Shown here piece by piece: positions 12,480 through 29,817 of a stretch of DNA of 31,872 nucleotides. The notes under the pieces are model-generated. The model was not told the DNA's origin and did not search any database. It was given only the letters and a program-made list of their open reading frames with translations. Position numbers and translations under genes: made by a program. Each line of letters starts with the position of its first letter. The stretch's first letter is position 1. Source of the stretch: a virus (Duplodnaviria > Heunggongvirae > Uroviricota > Caudoviricetes); IMG/VR virus record IMGVR_UViG_3300045988_180666; one strand, given 5' to 3'.

Positions 12480-12489
12480 TGCAAAGATA
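12480..12489 (-). promoter_or_regulatory. Promoter -7 element for the 353-aa gene operon
   Basis: TGCAAAGATA about 22 nt from ATG at 12458; preceded (on minus strand) by hairpin + T-run. Confidence 0.55.
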
Positions 12490-13213: not shown

Positions 13214-13575
13214 GCTACGACTCCTCCCATCAGATAACCACCAAAGAAAACCACTGCCATGAAGGCTGCGAAGCCTAGTGTGGCCTTGACCACCTCGCCG
13301 TAGGTCACGCTCTCGTCGCAGAGTGCGGTGAAGGTCTCGCTCTCGGTCTTGGCGAGCTTCTTGATTTCACACTTGAGGGTATTGATACCCTCCTCTACGC
13401 TGATGCCTGCAGGTCTCACCTGCGCATCACTAATTAAAATTGAATTCTGCATAATTGCCATCTTATAACCATTATAGACCGACCTTGATGTATAAATACA
13501 ATGGTGGCGGTCACATTCACCGTTGGTTATAAGATGGTAGCTTTCCCAGCGAAGGGCAAGTATCTTACGGATCAT
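13210..13575 (-). CDS. Small membrane protein with single C-terminal transmembrane helix; holin/spanin-like candidate
   Basis: ORF track, 121 aa. Extreme C-terminus ATLGFAAFMAVVFFGGYLMGGVVA is one hydrophobic helix. Internal ATG at about 13461 is an alternative start. Function inferred from topology only. Confidence 0.45.
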   Translation of the reverse strand: MIRKILALRWESYHLITNGECDRHHCIYTSRSVYNGYKMAIMQNSILISDAQVRPAGISVEEGINTLKCEIKKLAKTESETFTALCDESVTYGEVVKATLGFAAFMAVVFFGGYLMGGVVA

Positions 13576-13814
13576 GCAACCGCCATATTGAAAAGACCTT
13601 TTTCCCGCTGCCGGGAAAATGATACTTTATAGGCATAAAAAAAGCCCACGGCGTGAAGCCTAGGCGAAACAGTCGCCATCGCTGAGTAGATTACTACTAT
13701 CTTATAACCGATGGCAAAAGTACGAAGAATAATTGGAACCGCCAAAAAAAAAGCGAGAAATTTTGAAATAAATGACTTTTTTATGTTTTAGAGCATAAAA
13801 CAAGGGGGTGAGGA

Positions 13815-16564: not shown

Positions 16565-17360
16565 ACGCTTAAAATTTTTATTCTAGCCAGAGGGAGGAAG
16601 GAGCTTTTTTATTTGAACTCGTCTTTGCCTGCCCGTCTGAGAGTTTTTTTTATTCTGTCCGTCGGTCGTTTTTGTCGCTTTTTACGGTGCGATGCAGACG
16701 AGCGGAGAAGAGGTATGAAAGCCAAGGAATTTTGCAAAAAGTTTATGGAAAACCGTCATCTCTGATTGCGGAAGGCTGCCGAAAAGTTTTTGGAAAATAG
16801 ATTTATCGGTACTTGGTGCATGCCGTCCGCCGTACCTTTGCACCCGAAAAAGAGATAATGACCGATGGATAACCGATAAAGGGAAAAGCTCTCGGACAGG
16901 AAAAGCGGGCAAAGAAAAGGCTCTGCCTTACCTTGGTGGTTAAGCCTTAGCGACGTTTGAGCGCCATCACGGTCACCACCGCTTGAAAATTCGCAAATTT
17001 TAACCCTAGCGTATGAAATGAAAGATGGAAAATTTGCGTCATCAAAAACACCATGTTTTTCAGACTTCAGGAGGAAAAACATACCTTGGAGCGATGAAAT
17101 CGCAGCATTTGGCATGCTTCGACCCCGAGGTTGAAGATGCCGAATGTGTCGTTTTGCGACAGGTTTTCCACACCCACGGATTGGAAAACCCCGATTTTAT
17201 CGTGGTTTTAGGGATTCAAAGGGAAAATAATTCCCCTTTGTCGGCGATAGCACCCCCCACCGCCCTACGCCCGAGCGCGCCTTCCGCCCCCTTGGAAAAG
17301 ACGGAATATGTAAAAGACCGTTAACGTTTTTGTAGGAATGTAAAAAGCCAAAAGGCACGA

Positions 17361-17462: not shown

Positions 17463-19064
17463 CTATAGCATGGAACCCGTGGCGATGTAGCCATCAGCCT
17501 GAGGGTATTTCTCCATGCCAATCATGAGCGTGTCGTAGGCATCGGAGCCATCGGTGCGAGCCTCCAACTTATCCTCCTCGGTCTCAGCCAGCTTCTCGCC
17601 TCGCTTATCCTTCTTGCCGTTGTAGACCCCGGCCAGGCGGATGGAGATGAGCAGGTCTTCGTTGTTCTCGCTGTTGATCATCGAGCGATGCTCAGCCTTG
17701 CCGAGGAACATGCGGTTGAGCAGAAGCATCTTTTCGAGATGTCCCATCGGGTTGCCCAGATAGACCTCGTTGACATACCAGCCATGGTCGGTGAGGTAGT
17801 CGGTGATGAAGGTATGGAAGTCATCGTTCATCAGGGCGTAGTTGTTGCCCACGAAGGTGGAGTCGTAGTAGAAGTTGACCTCTTTGCACCGATGGTACTC
17901 ATAGTACTGCATGAACTTGTCGAGCAGGGCTGGCAGCTTCTCCTCATACTTCACGAAGATGCTCTTGAGGCAGCGTGCCTCGCCCCGCAGGTTGTCTTGT
18001 CCGACGGCTATCCAGTTGATGAGGGCGTTGGCATCGAAGGCGATGCAGAGCGGACGGTCGGGGTCAACGTCGGCATCCATTCTGGAATCTACATGCTTGA
18101 GCTTGTCGATGTCGTAGCCCAAGCCATCGAGGTAGGCGAGGTTGGGCGCCGTGTATAGGTTGGCATCCCTGAGGTTGGAGTAGAAGCCATCGAGCGAGAT
18201 GGAAGGTCGCTTGCACATGATGGAGGTCTGGAAGGTGAGGGCAGGGAGGTCTCGCTTCATCTGCTTGATGAACTCCATGCCGAGCACCTCGATGTTATAG
18301 ACCGATGAGTACTCTTTATAGAAGAGTGCCTTGGAGCGCAGTTGCGCCAGGAGCTGACCAATCTCTCGGAGTCGGCGCTGGGCATAGCCTGAGACATGGC
18401 CCGAGGTCTTGATGCGGTTGCGTATGTCATACTCCTCTACCACGAGCGAGGCGATGGCGTCGATGAGCAGCTGGTCGCAGTCTTTCTTGTAGTTGAGGAA
18501 CCAGGAGCCCTTCTTGGTCACGGGCATATCAGAGGTGATGAGCATGCCATGGTGGTAGTAGTGCTGGCCGAAGAGGTTGACGTTGCCTCGATTGGCAGGG
18601 AAGGTCTCGTCTTTGAGCTGTTCGAAGTTGATGAACTTCGCCTCGTCGATGTCGAGGTAGTCGAGCGAGAGGGAGTTGGAGGTACCCTTGCGGTCTTGCG
18701 AGATGATGGTACCGATGGAGCCGTTATAGAAAGAGATGGTGTTCTCCCAGTTGCTGGGCGGTATGACCGGGTCGGGCCATCCCAGTTTTTTGGGAGGCTT
18801 GACCCCGATGAGATAATGCTTGCCCCGGTGGAAGCCCCATCGCTCCCAGTGCTGAAGCATCGACGGTATGGTGTTGGTGAGGCATCGCTTGGTGTTGGCG
18901 GATACGAAGCCGCCGTTGCTGCCAGGCATGCGCTGCATGTTGCGCAGGTTGAAGGTGGCGTGGAGAATGCTCTTGCCGATGCCTCGACCGCCCACGACCA
19001 CGTTGTCGCGGGCGGAGATGAGGTTGACCTCCATCTGGGCTGGGTTGAGATATTGATCTATCAT
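17463..19064 (-). CDS. terL: Terminase large subunit
   Basis: 533 aa. Walker A-like VVVGGRGIGKS near N-terminus, Walker B-like LDYLDIDEA. Size and position beside a small upstream gene with ATGA overlap fit a phage TerL. Confidence 0.75.
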   Translation of the reverse strand: MIDQYLNPAQMEVNLISARDNVVVGGRGIGKSILHATFNLRNMQRMPGSNGGFVSANTKRCLTNTIPSMLQHWERWGFHRGKHYLIGVKPPKKLGWPDPVIPPSNWENTISFYNGSIGTIISQDRKGTSNSLSLDYLDIDEAKFINFEQLKDETFPANRGNVNLFGQHYYHHGMLITSDMPVTKKGSWFLNYKKDCDQLLIDAIASLVVEEYDIRNRIKTSGHVSGYAQRRLREIGQLLAQLRSKALFYKEYSSVYNIEVLGMEFIKQMKRDLPALTFQTSIMCKRPSISLDGFYSNLRDANLYTAPNLAYLDGLGYDIDKLKHVDSRMDADVDPDRPLCIAFDANALINWIAVGQDNLRGEARCLKSIFVKYEEKLPALLDKFMQYYEYHRCKEVNFYYDSTFVGNNYALMNDDFHTFITDYLTDHGWYVNEVYLGNPMGHLEKMLLLNRMFLGKAEHRSMINSENNEDLLISIRLAGVYNGKKDKRGEKLAETEEDKLEARTDGSDAYDTLMIGMEKYPQADGYIATGSML

Positions 19065-19690
19065 AGTGCTTTGTCCTCCTTGACTTCTTCTGTAGGTGTA
19101 TATTCCAAGAGCTGTTCGTCGTAGTCCTCGGCCTCGATCTTGACGAGATCCATGGAGTTGTCGGTGTATTTCTTGACGAGCTTCTTGATGGTCTGCATCA
19201 CGTTAGGGATGCGCTTGAGACCCAAGTGTCGTGGGTCGGTGGTAGGGATGAAGACCTGAGGCTGAATCTGGTCGTAGCCGTTGTCGGTAGGATCCTCTTT
19301 GTCGAGCAGGTGATATTTGCCGTATGCAGCTGCGGCGGCAGCCATGGCTCGGGCATCGCCCATGGAGTCGGCCTTGTCGTAGGTGCGCTGTATCATCTGG
19401 TCGAAGCGATAGCGGGCGAAGTCTTTTGACACTTTTTGCAGGTTGCCCAATATGAGCTTGATGAGGTGCAGGTCGTTGTAAGCCATCATGCGCTGCACCT
19501 TGTAGTCGTGCATATCTTTATAGACCAGCTCTTGGTCGCTCTTGCGAGGGTTGATGAGCCACCAGGCATAGAGGGCACGGATGCGCAAAATGCGGTCGCG
19601 CACTGGGGCGGGCACATTTTGCGCATCCATCTCTTCGGGTGTGCGGTCCATCAGTTCGATGATGGCATCGATGTTGGCGGGTTCTCTCAT
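19061..19690 (-). CDS. Putative terminase small subunit
   Basis: ORF track, 209 aa. Directly upstream of terL with 4 nt overlap. Call is positional only. Confidence 0.45.
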   Translation of the reverse strand: MREPANIDAIIELMDRTPEEMDAQNVPAPVRDRILRIRALYAWWLINPRKSDQELVYKDMHDYKVQRMMAYNDLHLIKLILGNLQKVSKDFARYRFDQMIQRTYDKADSMGDARAMAAAAAAYGKYHLLDKEDPTDNGYDQIQPQVFIPTTDPRHLGLKRIPNVMQTIKKLVKKYTDNSMDLVKIEAEDYDEQLLEYTPTEEVKEDKAL

Positions 19691-21916: not shown

Positions 21917-23035
21917 TTACTCCTTGCCCTCAGCTCCGGTATCGTCTGCAGAAGAATTCTTCTGCTCTGCATCGCTAGCTGTGTTGCTGCTTGCAGGATC
22001 AGCACCTGAACCCTTTGTGATGAGCGATGTGGTACCATCGTTTGTGATGAACAGGGCTCGTTCTTTATTGATGCTCTCGTACTGGCAACCTAAGAACTTG
22101 GTGGCGATGAAGTCGAGCTTCCAAGGGTGGTACTTTTCTACGCTGATCTTCTCCTCGTCGCTGTTGTTTGCCTCGTTGACACCCACGAGCATATTGTTGC
22201 GAGTGGTGAGCTGGAAGAACGGAGCGTTCTTCTTGTTGATGAGTGGTACCATCTCAACGTTGTCGAAACCCTCGACGGTGTTGTGGTTGTAACCGGTATT
22301 GTATGGCACATTGCCAAACTTATTGAGGTAGTTGCGGTTGTAGAGATTGATGAACGCCTGTGGAACGTAGAGATAAAGCTTCTCTTCGCCAATCAGTTCT
22401 TCGTCAGCCTCCTCGCAAATGGCCTGTGCGAAGTCAACGGCGTTATCGCTGCTGATATTCTTACCACTGCCCAAAATATCTGAAACTTTGATGAGGTTGC
22501 CGAGGTCTCGAGACAGCTTGCCATTAGTCAACTCAGTCTTGGCGATGGTATCGAAACCATTGAAGAGGTCTTTTGAGCCTTTGCCCTCGTCGTTGCGCAC
22601 GGCATCGAAGAGGTGGAGGTTGAGGTTCTTGCCCAGCTTGAGCGCCAAGAGCTGCAGCACCTGAAGGGTGATTGGCACGTTCTTAAGCGCTTCGCCATTC
22701 ATGGCGTTGGCCCCCCAAATGGTGGAATAAACTGAGTTCGGGGAGAACTTGATGTCAACGTTGCCGAGGAACACCTGCAAAGTGCGAGGTGTAATCTTTA
22801 CGCCACCATCGCCCACGCGGTTCTCGTCGTATGGACCAAACTCTGCGTTGCCGAGCAACTCGCCCACGGTCTCTGAAACTCTGATGCCCGGGCGCAGGGT
22901 CATGTACTTGAGTGACTGAGCCAAGCCTTTGGTAGGCATCGTAATCAACTTCGAACGGTAAGTTTTCGCAGTGTTCTGCAGCTGTACATCGACATCTACA
23001 GGCACAATGAATTTATTATCTGCCATATTATGCAA
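21917..23035 (-). CDS. Putative major capsid protein
   Basis: ORF track, 372 aa. Immediately downstream of the ClpP-like protease gene, which is the usual capsid position. Size fits HK97-fold capsids. No motif confirmation. Confidence 0.45.
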   Translation of the reverse strand: MHNMADNKFIVPVDVDVQLQNTAKTYRSKLITMPTKGLAQSLKYMTLRPGIRVSETVGELLGNAEFGPYDENRVGDGGVKITPRTLQVFLGNVDIKFSPNSVYSTIWGANAMNGEALKNVPITLQVLQLLALKLGKNLNLHLFDAVRNDEGKGSKDLFNGFDTIAKTELTNGKLSRDLGNLIKVSDILGSGKNISSDNAVDFAQAICEEADEELIGEEKLYLYVPQAFINLYNRNYLNKFGNVPYNTGYNHNTVEGFDNVEMVPLINKKNAPFFQLTTRNNMLVGVNEANNSDEEKISVEKYHPWKLDFIATKFLGCQYESINKERALFITNDGTTSLITKGSGADPASSNTASDAEQKNSSADDTGAEGKE

Positions 23036-24053
23036 ACTGATTTAAAACATCCAACACTTGATCTGAGCAGAAATCCTCGACCTTGGTGTCATCGACAGCA
23101 GTGTGCGTGTCGCCACCAGGCTCTCCCTCCAGATCCTTCACTTTATCCTTCAGGTCATCTCTCTCCTTTTCGAGATTCTTGACCTTAGTCTCTAACTCCT
23201 TCTTCTCGTCCTTGACCTTCTGAAGCTCTGTGTCTTTGTCGGTCACGGCCTTGGAGTCGGCAGCGATCTTATCCTCCAGTTTCTGCATCTGCTCCTGTGA
23301 GATTGTGCAGTTCTTTGCGGAATCTTCTGCCTCAATGCCCTCGATATTGAGGACATTGTTGATGTGAGTCCATTTTTTGATCATATTAATAATTTTATTT
23401 TGTGATTTATCTTTGCCGAATAATCGGTCGATGATGCTTGGCTTTTTATCATACCAGGAGTTAACAACCTCTGGGAGAACAGGAAGGTTGTTGTACTTGA
23501 TGAAGTCTTGCGTCTGCTCGGTGATGTCGGCAGGCTTGCCATCCATGGCTTCATCGACGAGACCCAGTTCGATGCACTCATCGACGGTGTGCCACATCGC
23601 TTCGGACATCACCTTGACGATGTCCTCGTGCTTCTTGCCCGAGCGATCGCAGTAAACGTTGGCGATGATGTTGTCGATTTTCTGCTGGTTCTCTTGCTGT
23701 TTTTGAAGTTGCTCGATGAGCGAGCCTATCTGCTCCTCGTTGAGCGCAGACCACACAAACTGCTCGGTAGAGCACTTGTGTACCAGGAGCAAGCTATATT
23801 TGCTCATGCGAATCTTGCTGGCACCCATCGCACAGATGGTGGCAGCAGAGGCAGAGAAGCCCGCCTGGAAGTCAACGGTCACGTCGCCATGGGACTTGAA
23901 CATCTGACAGATGGCGAGACCTGCGGAGACCTCGCCACCCAAGGAGTCGATGGCAACATCGACGTGCTTATCTTTGTTGGCCTTAAGAACATCGCGAACC
24001 ATGAGCTTGGTCCACGAGCCAATATATCCTGTGATAGAAATTTGGTACTTCAT
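23028..24053 (-). CDS. ClpP-like prohead serine protease with C-terminal coiled-coil (scaffold-like) extension
   Basis: 341 aa. DSLGGEVSAGLAI, GFSASAATICAMGA and LLLVHK resemble ClpP/S14 catalytic regions. C-terminal 100 aa is Lys/Glu/Asp-rich heptad-like (KVKDEKKELETKVKNLEKERDDLKDKVKDLE). Confidence 0.75.
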   Translation of the reverse strand: MKYQISITGYIGSWTKLMVRDVLKANKDKHVDVAIDSLGGEVSAGLAICQMFKSHGDVTVDFQAGFSASAATICAMGASKIRMSKYSLLLVHKCSTEQFVWSALNEEQIGSLIEQLQKQQENQQKIDNIIANVYCDRSGKKHEDIVKVMSEAMWHTVDECIELGLVDEAMDGKPADITEQTQDFIKYNNLPVLPEVVNSWYDKKPSIIDRLFGKDKSQNKIINMIKKWTHINNVLNIEGIEAEDSAKNCTISQEQMQKLEDKIAADSKAVTDKDTELQKVKDEKKELETKVKNLEKERDDLKDKVKDLEGEPGGDTHTAVDDTKVEDFCSDQVLDVLNQFA

Positions 24054-24074
24054 ATATCTTTGCGATTTTTACGG

Positions 24075-24084
24075 CGCAAAGATA
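24075..24084 (-). promoter_or_regulatory. Promoter -7 element for protease-capsid operon, embedded in a 12 bp-arm inverted repeat
   Basis: CGCAAAGATA about 22 nt from ATG at 24053; forms right arm of palindrome TATATCTTTGCG (24053-24064) / CGCAAAGATATA (24075-24086). Confidence 0.5.
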
Positions 24085-24113
24085 TATAATAATGTATAAG
24101 GATAAAAAAACTT

Positions 24114-24533
24114 TTATTGGATGATTTGGAGCGGTTTTATCACGTCAGACCATGTCACGGTATAAGTGATGAGCGATGAGTCTGTGTGTGAGCTTGGCAT
24201 ATTTTCGGTGCGAGTGAGCACCGGGAAGGGACGCTGGTCTCTGCCCAGAAGATAGGCGCACCCATCGGCGGTAGTCACCTTGTAGGCGAGCGGGTGAACC
24301 TCTGAGTCTATCTGCTCGCTCGACTTGAAGGTGAGCTTTGAAGTGAAAATGCGAACCTTGGACTCAATTTTGTCGGTGATTTCACAACTCGACGGCATTT
24401 TGCACTTTATCTGCTGGAAGACTGCACTTGCAGGAATGATGCAAAGATTTTTGGCTGGGAAGATGACAGCCTTGAGGTCATCGGCTCTCACGACCTCAAT
24501 CTTGATGATGTTTTTGATGTATGACATAAGCAT
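24114..24533 (-). CDS. Hypothetical phage protein
   Basis: ORF track, 139 aa. No recognisable motif. Confidence 0.5.
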   Translation of the reverse strand: MLMSYIKNIIKIEVVRADDLKAVIFPAKNLCIIPASAVFQQIKCKMPSSCEITDKIESKVRIFTSKLTFKSSEQIDSEVHPLAYKVTTADGCAYLLGRDQRPFPVLTRTENMPSSHTDSSLITYTVTWSDVIKPLQIIQ

Positions 24534-24612
24534 GAAAATTTATCTTTTTGTTTGGAATCGACGGATATTTCGGTTTTGTTCGGAGTTGTTTGCAGAGACG
24601 GAAAAATTTGTA

Positions 24613-25197
24613 TTAATCTTTGCTAAATCTTGTTGTAGATGTTAAATTTACGCCTCTTTTTGCGTGTTGATCACGCATTCTGTAGAAACATTGGCGTACG
24701 GTATCCTCGTAATCGATGCCAATGCCATGCTGTTCGCACCATGCCGAAATGAGCGATGAAAGCTTGCATGAGCGGTCGGCGATGTCTTTGAGCGAAGCCC
24801 AGAGATCCATCTTGAAGAGGTCGGAAATCATCTCTTTGACGGCACGTCTGGCACGTGGCCCGAGGTAGTTGTACTCTCGCACAGGCTTAGCCTTGGAGTC
24901 AGGCAGCTCGATGGCAAGATACTCTTCGGGATGGGTGAGCCATCGGCTCTGCTCGAACTCCTCGTCGTGGAAGGTATGCTTGACACTTTGGTGCAGTTGG
25001 CTGGCATCAGCCTGCTGCATCTCTTGGATGTTCTCTTGGTCGATAGGCGATAGGTTGACAACGGGAGGTCTGCTGGTGAACTTGCGGAGCACAGCCACCT
25101 CGTTGCCGATGGCAGGGAAGACCACTGGGTTGCCATAAGCTCGGTAAGCCCATTGTCTGATGTGGGTAGGAACTTTGATGTAAACAATTGGATTCAT
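24613..25197 (-). CDS. Hypothetical phage protein (about 194 aa)
   Basis: Track ORF 24613..25209 begins with a non-ATG start; first ATG at about 25197 (MNPIVYIKV...) lies about 20 nt downstream of TGCAAAGATA motif (25216-25225). Confidence 0.55.
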   Translation of the reverse strand: MNPIVYIKVPTHIRQWAYRAYGNPVVFPAIGNEVAVLRKFTSRPPVVNLSPIDQENIQEMQQADASQLHQSVKHTFHDEEFEQSRWLTHPEEYLAIELPDSKAKPVREYNYLGPRARRAVKEMISDLFKMDLWASLKDIADRSCKLSSLISAWCEQHGIGIDYEDTVRQCFYRMRDQHAKRGVNLTSTTRFSKD

Positions 25198-25215
25198 ATA
25201 GCTATGCAATTTTCG

Positions 25216-25225
25216 TGCAAAGATA
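25216..25225 (-). promoter_or_regulatory. Promoter -7 element for the 194-aa gene
   Basis: TGCAAAGATA about 20 nt from ATG at about 25197. Confidence 0.55.
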
Positions 25226-25339
25226 CAAAGAAAATTTGAAATAACTAACGATAATCGGTAAAAACTAACTTTTATCAGTAAATTTGGTGTGATATAATTT
25301 CGTCCGAAAAGTTTGTATTTTTGTATCGTACAAACAAGG

Positions 25340-25593
25340 CTCTGTAACTAGCTGATAATCAATACTATTTTTGTGATACAATTTTCTGATACAGAAATTG
25401 TAACTCTTTAGCTTTTGTAACTTGGGGTTTTGTCGAGGTCGAAGACCTGTAGGAGAAGGGGCTTGTTACAAACTTGAAAAACTTTGTAACAGAGTTGTAA
25501 CGCAACTTTGTAAACATCGGCAAGGCGGCTTAACTCCATCTTTTATAATTATTTACCTCTTTTGCCAACATTATGTTACAGAGTTACAAAGGA
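25340..25593. repeat. Iteron-like array of at least 9 TTGTAAC / GTTACAA elements in both orientations
   Basis: Copies at about 25343, 25399, 25416, 25464 (rev), 25485, 25496, 25507 (variant), 25576 (rev), 25584 (rev). Includes near-repeats TGTAACAGAGTTGTAAC and TGTTACAGAGTTACAAAG. Downstream of primase gene. Confidence 0.6.
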
Positions 25594-25733
25594 TTTGTAT
25601 AAAATAAAAGAAAGGGGTGTGGGGAAAACGATGGCACGGGGCGTGAAGGAGGATAGGGAAGGCCCATCGAGACACCCAGGACACCCCCATTGGCCAATGG
25701 AGGGGTAGCGAGACGAAACATCGCCCATGGCAA

Positions 25734-25770
25734 CGAAAAAAGGGAGCGACGGCCAATGCGCATCGCTCCC
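25734..25770 (-). terminator. Rho-independent terminator after primase-helicase gene
   Basis: 8 bp GC stem GGGAGCGA (25742-25749) / TCGCTCCC (25763-25770); plus-strand A-run 25736-25741 gives TTTTTT on minus strand. Confidence 0.65.
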
Positions 25771-25951
25771 TCGTAACATGGGAAAAGAATTATAAATCAG
25801 CAAAAATCTGCCTATGAAATCAGCCCTCGTCTGCTTGCAAAAATAGTGAAAAATTGCTTGAAAATTTAGCCGAAAATATTTGCATAATTCAGATATTTTT
25901 TGTACCTTTGCACTATAACTTGGGGCTATCTATTCTATTATATATGGATGG

Positions 25952-28906: not shown

Positions 28907-28932
28907 AATTCTTTTCCATTGTAAATTTGCTT

Positions 28933-28940
28933 GCAAAATT
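28933..28940 (-). promoter_or_regulatory. Promoter -7 element for primase-helicase gene
   Basis: Plus-strand CAAAATTA = reverse complement TAATTTTG, about 28 nt upstream of ATG at about 28906. Confidence 0.45.
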
Positions 28941-29074
28941 ATTGCAAAGCGAGTTCAAAACAAAATACTTATTTTTTGTCGCATAGAGCCTTTGGCTCAT
29001 ACTCGACGTATCTGTGGAGAGGGTGGCAGTATCTGCCATTGATGCAGTTGCTGCCATCCTCGCACTTTTGGCAT

Positions 29075-29809: not shown

Positions 29810-29817
29810 CAAAGTTA
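29810..29817 (-). promoter_or_regulatory. Early lytic promoter -7 element (minus strand) in divergent switch region
   Basis: Plus CAAAGTTA = reverse complement TAACTTTG, 22 nt upstream of the 74-aa gene start at 29788. Confidence 0.5.

What the first reader, a model, noticed from the sequence alone, without database searches (positions are those of the whole stretch)
24053..24086. Perfect 12 bp-arm inverted repeat containing the protease promoter -7 element and overlapping the protease start codon
TATATCTTTGCG (24053-24064) and CGCAAAGATATA (24075-24086) are exact reverse complements separated by a 10 nt spacer. The right arm carries the minus-strand -7 element; the left arm carries the same element on the plus strand and ends at the first base of the protease ATG. 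Read-through transcripts from upstream would fold the start region into a 12 bp hairpin, whereas transcripts from the internal promoter would lack one arm. This could tune protease/capsid expression or serve as a dimeric regulator-binding site or a bidirectional promoter.
Basis: partly seen in the sequence, partly recalled or inferred. Interest (0 to 1): 0.45.

Follow-up and report, generated by a model that had tools for sequence, protein, structure and literature searches.

The report
Promoter hidden in start-codon hairpin
A perfect inverted repeat in front of a gut Bacteroidota phage's capsid-protease gene places the gene's own promoter in one arm and its start codon in the other, so it probably lets only promoter-made transcripts be translated, a trick already known from phage T4.

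Summary
The repeat is real and slightly longer than reported. It has 13-bp perfect arms (24052-24064 / 24075-24087) and a 10-nt spacer. As sense-strand RNA it extends to 15 bp and covers the whole AUG of a ClpP-type head-maturation protease (23028-24053, minus strand). About 0.01 such repeats are expected per window by chance.

The upstream arm holds a Bacteroidota -7 box (TATCTTTG, 24084-24077). This is one of about nine similar intergenic promoters in the window. The predicted transcription start (~24072) lies in the loop.

- **Predicted effect:** opening the AUG region costs 13.4 kcal/mol on read-through RNA and 1.8 kcal/mol on promoter-initiated RNA.
- **Close relatives:** those at 77% or more protease identity keep the hairpin, with variable loops (10-18 nt), G·U pairs and a few compensatory changes.
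- **Other lineages:** unrelated arm sequences form equivalent hairpins in several distant protease lineages. None of 22 matched control gene starts does.
- **Strand bias:** sense RNA folds better than antisense in 16 of 19 cases.

Best explanation (confidence ~0.5): a counterpart of T4 genes e/soc/49/I-TevI, where a promoter embedded in a start-site-sequestering hairpin gates translation. The operator, terminator and bidirectional-promoter readings are disfavoured. No transcript or translation data exist. I rate it a new member of a known kind, of moderate interest.

The parts
24050..24089 (-). Whole hairpin as sense RNA: 15-bp stem (13 perfect Watson-Crick pairs, then one U.G and one U-A) with a 10-nt loop
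   Evidence: -16.7 kcal/mol, z = -5.3
24075..24089 (-). 5' arm (TTATATATCTTTGCG). It contains the promoter -7 box and lies entirely upstream of the predicted transcription start
   Evidence: box position -12..-5 taken from PMC9723704
24077..24084 (-). Bacteroidota sigma-A type -7 box TATCTTTG (TAnnTTTG)
   Evidence: the same box sits upstream of about 9 minus-strand gene starts in the window; consensus from PMC7366714
24102..24111 (-). GTTTTTTTAT run, 17 nt upstream of the -7 box. Probable -33-region element, shared with the promoters at 12489 and 7126 (GTATTTTTAT) and conserved in relatives
   Evidence: sequence inspection; function inferred
24065..24074 (-). Loop CCGTAAAAAT. The predicted transcription start (~24072, +/-2) lies here. 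The loop is not conserved in sequence or length among relatives
   Evidence: start position inferred from the -7 box geometry
24050..24064 (-). 3' arm (CGCAAAGATATATGA): the last 11 nt of the leader, the ATG (24053-24051) and the first base of codon 2
23028..24053 (-). ClpP-type head-maturation (prohead) protease gene, 341 aa. Its start codon is the one sequestered
21917..23026 (-). Next gene (369 aa), whose ATG lies 1 nt after the protease stop codon. Probable major capsid protein by position only. It is likely co-expressed with, or coupled to, the protease
   Evidence: synteny; one distant homologue hits phrog_1623 'virion structural protein'; no Pfam or PDB hit
24114..24533 (-). Upstream 139-aa ORF of unknown function. 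Its stop codon is 24 nt before the hairpin. It is the source of read-through RNA, and no terminator-like site lies in between
25218..25225 (-). -7 box (TATCTTTG) of the next promoter upstream, the likely origin of transcripts that read through into the protease gene

Best explanation
The repeat is a promoter-in-hairpin translational gate. Transcripts that start upstream (for example at the promoter near 25225) and run through the 139-aa gene contain both arms. They fold into a 15-bp hairpin that buries the leader and the AUG of the head-protease gene. Bacteroidota mRNAs have no Shine-Dalgarno sequence and depend on an open, A-rich start region, so these long RNAs should be poor templates for the protease and for the closely coupled downstream capsid-like gene. 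The gene's own sigma-A promoter has its -7 box inside the 5' arm and starts transcription in the loop. Its 19-nt-leader transcripts lack the 5' arm, leave the AUG open and are translated. Protease and capsid synthesis therefore depends on firing of this one promoter rather than on any RNA that happens to cross the gene.

Shown here: the repeat, the promoter motif family, the predicted energetics, and the conservation and recurrence in relatives. Inferred: the position of the transcription start, the existence of read-through RNA, and the effect on translation.
For: - The repeat is statistically exceptional.
- The -7 box in the 5' arm belongs to a repeated intergenic promoter family, GT(A/T)TTTTTAT-N17/18-TATCTTTGCA, placed 14-30 nt before minus-strand ATGs. 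Published geometry puts TAnnTTTG at -12..-5 (PMC9723704) or centred at -7 (PMC7366714). That places the start near 24072, in the loop.
- The energy to open -6..+6 around the AUG is 13.4 kcal/mol in read-through RNA and 1.8 kcal/mol in promoter-initiated RNA. The promoter-initiated 59-nt RNA is unstructured (z = +0.55).
- No terminator-like site separates the upstream gene from the hairpin.
- In relatives at 77% or more protease identity, both arms are conserved while the loop is free in sequence and length (10, 11 and 18 nt). There is a compensatory T-A to A-T change at the free 'n' position of the -7 box. L060 has a re-registered stem (GCAGA/TCTGT, with CAU pairing AUG). L068 has two U.G pairs.
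- Hairpins with unrelated arm sequences that also bury the AUG occur upstream of distant protease homologues: L065 at 42% identity, L181/L170, L178, L191, L067, L174 and L198.
- The read-through-minus-own-promoter opening energy is 6.3 kcal/mol or more in 8 of 22 protease lineages and in 0 of 22 promoter-matched control gene starts (Fisher p = 0.002; Mann-Whitney p = 0.02).
- Only this promoter, of 10 in the window, has such a hairpin.
- Sense RNA folds better than antisense in 16 of 19 representatives.
- There is a direct precedent. In T4 genes e, soc, 49 and I-TevI, the late promoter lies in the region encoding the 5' strand of a helix that sequesters the SD/AUG on early read-through RNA (PMC3014915).
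Against: - There are no transcript-end, structure-probing or translation data; all energetics are predictions.
- Covariation within the close clade is weak: 1 pair with changes on both sides, and 93% versus 91% of cells paired in shuffles. The abundant L118/L119 variants carry 1-2 mismatches.
- A 72%-identical relative (L061) and more than half of the distant lineages lack the hairpin, so it is dispensable.
- All promoters in the window look like the same host sigma-A type. No early/late promoter distinction is visible that would give the gate an obvious temporal purpose.
- T-rich -7 boxes and A-rich leaders are partly complementary by nature, which inflates weak pairing.
- Lineage definitions and thresholds in my enrichment tests were chosen after seeing the data.
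Confidence: 0.5

Rival explanations
1. The palindrome is a DNA operator. A dimeric phage or host regulator binds the two arms and represses or activates the protease promoter by covering its -7 box and start site.
For: There is perfect two-fold symmetry over 13 bp directly on a promoter. The centre-to-centre arm distance is 23 bp, about two helical turns. Both arms are conserved in close relatives.
Against: Arm spacing among clearly homologous hairpins varies (10, 11 and 18 nt; 14 nt in L065), which a fixed dimer would not tolerate. Departures from symmetry are mostly G.U-compatible on the sense strand, and sense RNA folds better than antisense in 16 of 19 cases. Arms of 13-15 bp are long for half-sites. 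No second copy of the palindrome exists in the window; only single promoter boxes are found. Other lineages use unrelated arm sequences but keep the same geometry relative to the AUG.
Confidence: 0.12
2. The hairpin acts on the upstream transcript rather than on protease translation. It could be a factor-dependent or non-canonical terminator, a pause site that protects the promoter from occlusion, an RNase processing site, or a 3'-end stabiliser for the mRNA of the 198-aa and 139-aa genes.
For: A stable stem (-16.7 kcal/mol) begins 24 nt after the upstream stop codon, and no canonical terminator lies between the genes. A hairpin that includes the -7 box will end near the ATG anyway, because leaders here are only about 20 nt long.
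Against: No U-tract follows the stem on either strand; the next bases are AUGAAGUACC. A 15-bp stem is short for RNase III. In L178 and L190 the 5' arm sits upstream of the -33 region and the whole promoter is in the loop, yet the 3' arm still abuts or covers the AUG. In L191 and L198 the 3' arm is the AUG plus the first codons. So the constant feature is the AUG, not the end of the upstream gene.
Confidence: 0.15
3. The repeat has no function of its own. It would be a by-product of a T-rich promoter box facing an A-rich leader plus AT-rich low-complexity sequence, or a remnant of a local duplication and inversion of the promoter.
For: TTTG/CAAA and TATATA self-complementarity arise easily. The close relative L061 does without the repeat. 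Covariation in the close clade is barely above shuffles. In AU-rich shuffles the AUG region is paired about 50% of the time.
Against: A 13-bp perfect repeat is expected 0.01 times per window. Promoter-matched control starts with the same composition never reach comparable duplex or opening energies. The stem is maintained through register and sequence changes (L060, L068). It recurs in independent lineages specifically at this gene.
Confidence: 0.15
4. It is a bidirectional promoter. The plus-strand copy of TATCTTTG (24055-24062) would drive an antisense RNA across the 139-aa gene.
For: An exact TAnnTTTG match lies on the plus strand.
Against: The plus-strand box is lost in L118 (88 loci), L125, L154, L068 and L060, which keep the hairpin, and in every distant lineage. 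No TTTG sits at -33 spacing on that strand: the only one, 24041-24044, is 10 nt away. All supported genes nearby are on the minus strand.
Confidence: 0.03

Closest known systems
[quoted passage not shown]
   Same: The architecture matches. The promoter is encoded in the 5' strand of the helix, the translation start lies in the 3' strand, promoter-initiated transcripts lack the 5' strand, and no terminator lies upstream. As in T4-like phages, some relatives have the structure and others do not.
   Different: There is no sequence relationship. The promoter is a host-type Bacteroidota sigma-A -7/-33 promoter, not a gp55-dependent TATAAATA late promoter. There is no Shine-Dalgarno sequence, so only the AUG and an A-rich leader are buried. 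The gated gene is the head protease (with a probable capsid gene behind it), not a lysis, decoration or endonuclease gene. The temporal class of the read-through RNA is unknown. Nothing has been tested experimentally here.
[quoted passage not shown]
   Same: A hairpin occludes the translation start region of a phage gene.
   Different: The gene class, host and promoter type all differ. I did not check whether that hairpin contains a promoter.
Canonical Bacteroidota sigma-ABfr promoter (TAnnTTTG at -7, TTTG near -33; PMC7366714, PMC9723704)
   Same: The 5' arm contains an exact TAnnTTTG. The leader of about 19 nt matches the short 5' UTRs typical of Bacteroides (mode 23 nt).
   Different: The -33 region is a T-run (GTTTTTTTAT) rather than TTTG. 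The promoter is embedded in a perfect palindrome, which the other promoters in this window are not.

Membership tests
T4-type promoter-in-hairpin translational gate (functional class, not a homology family) | A stable RNA helix that includes the start codon or translation initiation region | tested here: met
   A 15-bp helix covers -11..+4, at -16.7 kcal/mol, z = -5.3. The opening energy for -6..+6 is 13.4 kcal/mol. This is a prediction only.
T4-type promoter-in-hairpin translational gate (functional class, not a homology family) | A promoter lies in or at the 5' strand, so that its transcripts start inside the structure and lack the 5' strand | tested here: met
   TATCTTTG at 24084-24077 lies inside the 5' arm and belongs to a repeated promoter family. 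With the box at -12..-5, the start is near 24072, in the loop. The start is inferred, not mapped.
T4-type promoter-in-hairpin translational gate (functional class, not a homology family) | Longer transcripts from upstream promoters read through into the gene | tested here: inconclusive
   An upstream promoter lies at 25225-25218, and no terminator-like site lies between it and the hairpin. No transcript data are available.
T4-type promoter-in-hairpin translational gate (functional class, not a homology family) | Translation is repressed on long RNA and efficient on promoter-initiated RNA | not testable with these tools
   This needs reporter fusions, toeprinting or ribosome profiling.
T4-type promoter-in-hairpin translational gate (functional class, not a homology family) | The structure is maintained in relatives despite sequence change | tested here: met
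   It is kept in all variants at 77% or more identity, with loop turnover, G.U pairs and some compensatory changes. It is absent in L061 (72%). Analogous hairpins occur in 6-8 of 22 lineages against 0 of 22 controls.
Bacteroidota sigma-A (sigma-ABfr) promoter | -7 box TAnnTTTG placed a short distance upstream of the gene | tested here: met
   An exact match lies 23 nt before the ATG.
Bacteroidota sigma-A (sigma-ABfr) promoter | -33 box TTTG separated from the -7 box by an AT-rich spacer | tested here: inconclusive
   There is no TTTG. Instead a conserved GTTTTTTTAT sits 17 nt upstream, shared with other promoters in the window.
Intrinsic (Rho-independent) terminator | A G+C-rich stem followed directly by a U-tract | tested here: not met
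   The terminator scan does not call it. The stem has only 4 G-C pairs and is followed by AUGAAGUACC.
Palindromic operator of a dimeric DNA-binding regulator | Fixed half-site spacing, and strand-symmetric conservation in relatives | tested here: not met
   Spacing is 10, 11, 18 or 14 nt. There is a sense-over-antisense folding asymmetry in 16 of 19 cases.
Palindromic operator of a dimeric DNA-binding regulator | A cognate regulator and further operator copies in the genome | tested here: not met
   No other palindromic copy exists in the window. I did not search for a regulator.
Bidirectional promoter | A conserved promoter box on the opposite strand with a transcribed unit behind it | tested here: not met
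   The plus-strand box is lost in most relatives. No supported plus-strand gene follows it.
Any curated RNA family (Rfam 15) | A covariance-model match | tested here: not met
   No match at E <= 1 in 23500-24700, and none at gathering score in the whole window.

The most novel reading that the evidence does not exclude
Promoter-in-hairpin gating has arisen repeatedly, with unrelated sequences, specifically at the head-protease gene across a broad family of Segatella/Prevotella/Bacteroides phages. If so, Shine-Dalgarno-less Bacteroidota phages would use AUG burial as a general insulator that makes one sigma-A promoter the only licence for translating the protease-capsid pair. One purpose could be to keep a prophage's capsid module silent despite read-through transcription.
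Probability: 0.3. Interest if true: 0.55.

Novelty: new member of a known kind. Interest (0 to 1): 0.4.

Why it matters
Almost nothing is known about how phages of gut Bacteroidota time or insulate the expression of their structural genes. These hosts lack Shine-Dalgarno-guided initiation, so start-site accessibility should matter more than usual. If the gate works as predicted, it gives a simple rule, readable from sequence, for which transcripts make the capsid protease. It would also be a portable design element for Bacteroides synthetic biology: a promoter whose product is immune to upstream read-through. Finally, it would be an example of the T4 solution reappearing in an unrelated phage-host system. 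If it does not work that way, the site remains a well-defined, testable palindrome on a promoter.

Tried and rejected
- **No phage-database match.** A blastn search of 23000-25300 against 50,697 phage records found nothing, so no annotated relative could be consulted.
- **Scans that added little.** An IMG/VR scan with P0062 found nothing. The scan with P0042 returned the same contigs as before.
- **Uninformative metric.** My first measure, the probability that the AUG region pairs upstream, was uninformative because AU-rich shuffles already give about 0.5. I replaced it with duplex and opening energies.
- **Contaminated control set.** A broad control set of 55 gene starts contained G+C-rich internal ATGs, which weakened the contrast. 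The promoter-matched set of 22 is cleaner but small.
- **Weak covariation.** Covariation counting in the close clade was weak.
- **Terminator substitution idea.** I tested whether lineages without the hairpin carry a terminator upstream instead. No such pattern emerged.
- **Downstream gene not identified.** I could not establish the 369-aa gene as the major capsid protein. It has no Pfam, PHROG or PDB hit, and the single-sequence AlphaFold model was unusable (pLDDT 31.7). Only one distant homologue hits a 'virion structural protein' PHROG.
- **Readings rejected.** Intrinsic terminator, Rfam family and tRNA are ruled out. A recombinase site or inverton is unlikely because of the 10-nt spacer and the recurrence of the same geometry with different sequences.

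Full report
**Observation.** The window carries its genes on the minus strand. The perfect repeat extends one base further on each side, giving 13-bp arms (24052-24064 / 24075-24087) and a 10-nt spacer. In Markov-1 shuffles of the window, a perfect inverted repeat of 13 bp or more with a 3-30 nt spacer occurs 0.01 times per window. Two are observed, this one and 19579-19628. Folded as minus-strand RNA, the helix extends to 15 bp (24089-24075 with 24064-24050) through a U.G pair on the G of the start codon. Its energy is -16.7 kcal/mol, z = -5.3, and none of 200 dinucleotide shuffles folds as well.

**Context.**
- ORF 23028-24053 (-) is a ClpP-type head-maturation protease (Pfam PF00574 E = 4e-14; PHROG 94 E = 1.5e-29). 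Its ATG is 24053-24051.
- One base after its stop codon begins a 369-aa ORF (23026-21917) that is conserved in synteny. It is probably the major capsid protein, but I could not confirm this.
- Upstream lie a 139-aa ORF (24533-24114) and a 198-aa ORF, both without family matches.
- The large terminase is at 17463-19064 (weak PHROG 2 hit).
- The closest genomic relative in a named organism is a Segatella (Prevotella) copri MAG contig. Some metagenome contigs carrying the module exceed 100 kb, which suggests a temperate phage of gut Bacteroidota.

**The promoter.** On the minus strand, TAnnTTTG occurs 14 times. About ten of these lie in intergenic DNA, 14-30 nt before an ATG: at 29817, 28941, 25845, 25225, 24084, 15178/15150, 13722, 12489 and 7126. 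Most read TATCTTTGCA, and several have a GT(A/T)TTTTTAT run 17-18 nt upstream. This is the Bacteroidota sigma-A promoter type, with TAnnTTTG at -7 and a second element near -33 (PMC7366714). In Flavobacterium the box occupies -12 to -5 (PMC9723704). Applied here, the box at 24084-24077 predicts a start at about 24072, which is the third base of the hairpin loop. That gives a 19-nt leader, close to the modal 23-nt 5' UTR of B. thetaiotaomicron. All 15 bases of the 5' arm therefore lie upstream of the predicted start. The start position is an inference.

**Predicted consequence.** I computed the energy needed to open positions -6..+6 around the AUG.
- In a read-through RNA (-120..+40) it is 13.4 kcal/mol.
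- In an RNA beginning in the loop it is 1.8 kcal/mol.
- The promoter-initiated 59-nt RNA is no more structured than shuffles (z = +0.55).
- Bacteroidota mRNAs lack Shine-Dalgarno sequences and rely on A-rich start regions, so burial of the AUG should matter.
- No terminator-like site lies between the upstream genes and the hairpin.
- Of ten promoter regions in the window, only this one has such a hairpin.

**Relatives, close clade.** I collected about 190 loci encoding protease homologues from IMG/VR, GTDB genomes, metagenomes and Logan/ENA assemblies. In all variants at 77% or more protease identity the hairpin is predicted.
- Both arms are conserved, while the loop varies in sequence and length (10, 11 and 18 nt).
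- The only freely variable position of the 5' arm is an 'n' of TAnnTTTG. It switches T to A, and the partner in the 3' arm switches A to T in L107 and in the L118/L125 types. It is mismatched (C) in the L119 and L057 types.
- L068 keeps the stem with two U.G pairs and a 3-nt shift.
- L060 (77%) has a different inner stem (GCAGA/TCTGT), an 18-nt loop and a new register in which CAU pairs with AUG (-21 kcal/mol, z = -5.6).
- Formal covariation in the eight alignable variants is weak. One pair changes on both sides, and 93% of cells are paired against 91% in shuffles. The slid-register controls give only 28-62%.
- A 72% relative (L061) has the same promoter but no 3' arm, so the element is dispensable.

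**Relatives, distant lineages.** A promoter directly upstream of the protease ATG is general in this protein family. Hairpins built from unrelated sequences also bury the AUG in several lineages.
- L065 (42% identity): 15-bp stem, -22 kcal/mol.
- L181/L170: ATATTGCCT/AGGCAATAT, with a G-C to G.U difference between the two.
- L174: GTATAGCTT/AAGCTATAT.
- L178/L184 and L190: the 5' arm is upstream of the -33 region and the whole promoter is in the loop.
- L191 and L198: the 3' arm is the AUG plus the first codons.
- L067.

The constant feature across these is the 3' arm on the AUG, together with a 5' arm upstream of the predicted start. I used the difference in opening energy (read-through minus promoter-initiated) as the statistic. 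It is 6.3 kcal/mol or more in 8 of 22 protease lineages and in 0 of 22 control gene starts from the same loci that have a TAnnTTTG box at a similar distance. Fisher p = 0.002, Mann-Whitney p = 0.02, and the control maximum is 6.2. A duplex-energy statistic gives the same picture. I chose lineages and thresholds after looking at the data, so these p-values are indicative only.

**RNA or DNA?** Across 19 hairpin-bearing representatives, the sense-strand RNA fold is more stable than the antisense fold in 16 (mean difference -3.4 kcal/mol). By my own grouping of those representatives into lineages, this holds in 8 of 9 independent lineages. Departures from perfect symmetry are therefore mostly G.U-compatible on the mRNA strand. 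Together with the variable arm spacing, this argues for an RNA helix rather than a protein-binding palindrome.

This argues against a bidirectional promoter. The element is not terminator-like and matches no Rfam family.

**Comparison with what is known.** The arrangement matches the one described for phage T4 genes e, soc, 49 and I-TevI. Early read-through transcripts form a helix that sequesters the SD/AUG. Late promoters located in the region encoding the 5' strand of that helix give transcripts that lack it and are well translated. Related phages either share the structure or lack it (PMC3014915). The present case differs in four ways:
- the promoter type (host sigma-A -7/-33 rather than gp55-dependent);
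- the absence of a Shine-Dalgarno sequence;
- the gated gene (head protease with a probable capsid gene);
- the host phylum.

There is no sequence homology, so it is a further instance of a known mechanism, not a member of a homologous family.

**Verdict.** I put the promoter-in-hairpin translational gate at about 0.5. The rivals are an RNA element acting on the upstream transcript (0.15), no function (0.15), an operator (0.12) and a bidirectional promoter (0.03). It is a new member of a known kind. Interest is moderate (0.4), mainly because the same solution seems to recur at this gene in a poorly studied group of gut phages and because it is easy to test.

Noticed in passing
window 19579-19592 / 19615-19628: A second exceptional inverted repeat: 14-bp perfect arms (GGATGCGCAAAATG / CATTTTGCGCATCC) with a 22-nt G+C-rich spacer. 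It lies inside the coding sequence of the 209-aa ORF 19061-19690 (-), immediately upstream of the large terminase gene. It could be a packaging (pac) or small-terminase recognition site.
   Followed up: partly
window 16992-17001 / 17029-17038: A 10-bp inverted repeat, CGCAAATTTT ... AAAATTTGCG, with a 27-nt spacer, inside or near ORF 16756-17115 (-). Like the other two repeats it contains CGCAAA/TTTGCG.
   Followed up: no
window minus strand, -7 boxes at 29817, 28941, 25845, 25225, 24084, 15178, 15150, 13722, 12489, 7126: A family of Bacteroidota-type promoters (often GT(A/T)TTTTTAT-N17/18-TATCTTTGCA) lies 14-30 nt before gene starts. This implies many short-leader transcription units rather than one long late operon.
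   Followed up: partly
window 25210-25950: A stretch of about 740 nt has no ORF of 90 aa or more, is low in G+C (about 41%), and has TAnnTTTG boxes on both strands (minus 25845; plus 25279, 25316, 25366, 25903). It may be a regulatory or non-coding region.
   Followed up: no
window 13575-13722 (-): The promoter box at 13722 is followed by a structured segment (-17.6 kcal/mol, z = -2.2) before the next ORF (13575). This could be a long structured leader or a small RNA. There is no Rfam or tRNA hit.
   Followed up: no
window 24102-24120 (-) and the same position in relatives: The stop codon of the 139-aa gene sits in a conserved A/T palindrome, AATAAAAG-TTTTTTTATT, that can form a weak AU hairpin. 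Its T-run doubles as the presumed -33 region of the protease promoter.
   Followed up: no
L129 (OLQD01028051.1, 1762 bp), 80 nt upstream of the protease ATG: This is a variant in which everything upstream of the last three bases (GCG) of the 5' arm, including the promoter, is replaced by unrelated sequence, while the loop and 3' arm are intact. It is either a natural recombinant that lacks the gate's 5' arm or an assembly chimera.
   Followed up: no
L057 (CAVCRI010000336.1): A contig with an 81%-identical protease and the same Bacteroidota-type promoter and hairpin is binned in a 'Lachnospiraceae bacterium' MAG. This is probably a binning error, given the promoter type and the Segatella copri hit L056.
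   Followed up: no
window 28919-28945 (-): The promoter of the 994-aa gene lies in a near-palindrome, CTTTGCAATAATTTTGCAAG, and a TAnnTTTG box is present on both strands (28941 minus, 28922 plus).
   Followed up: no
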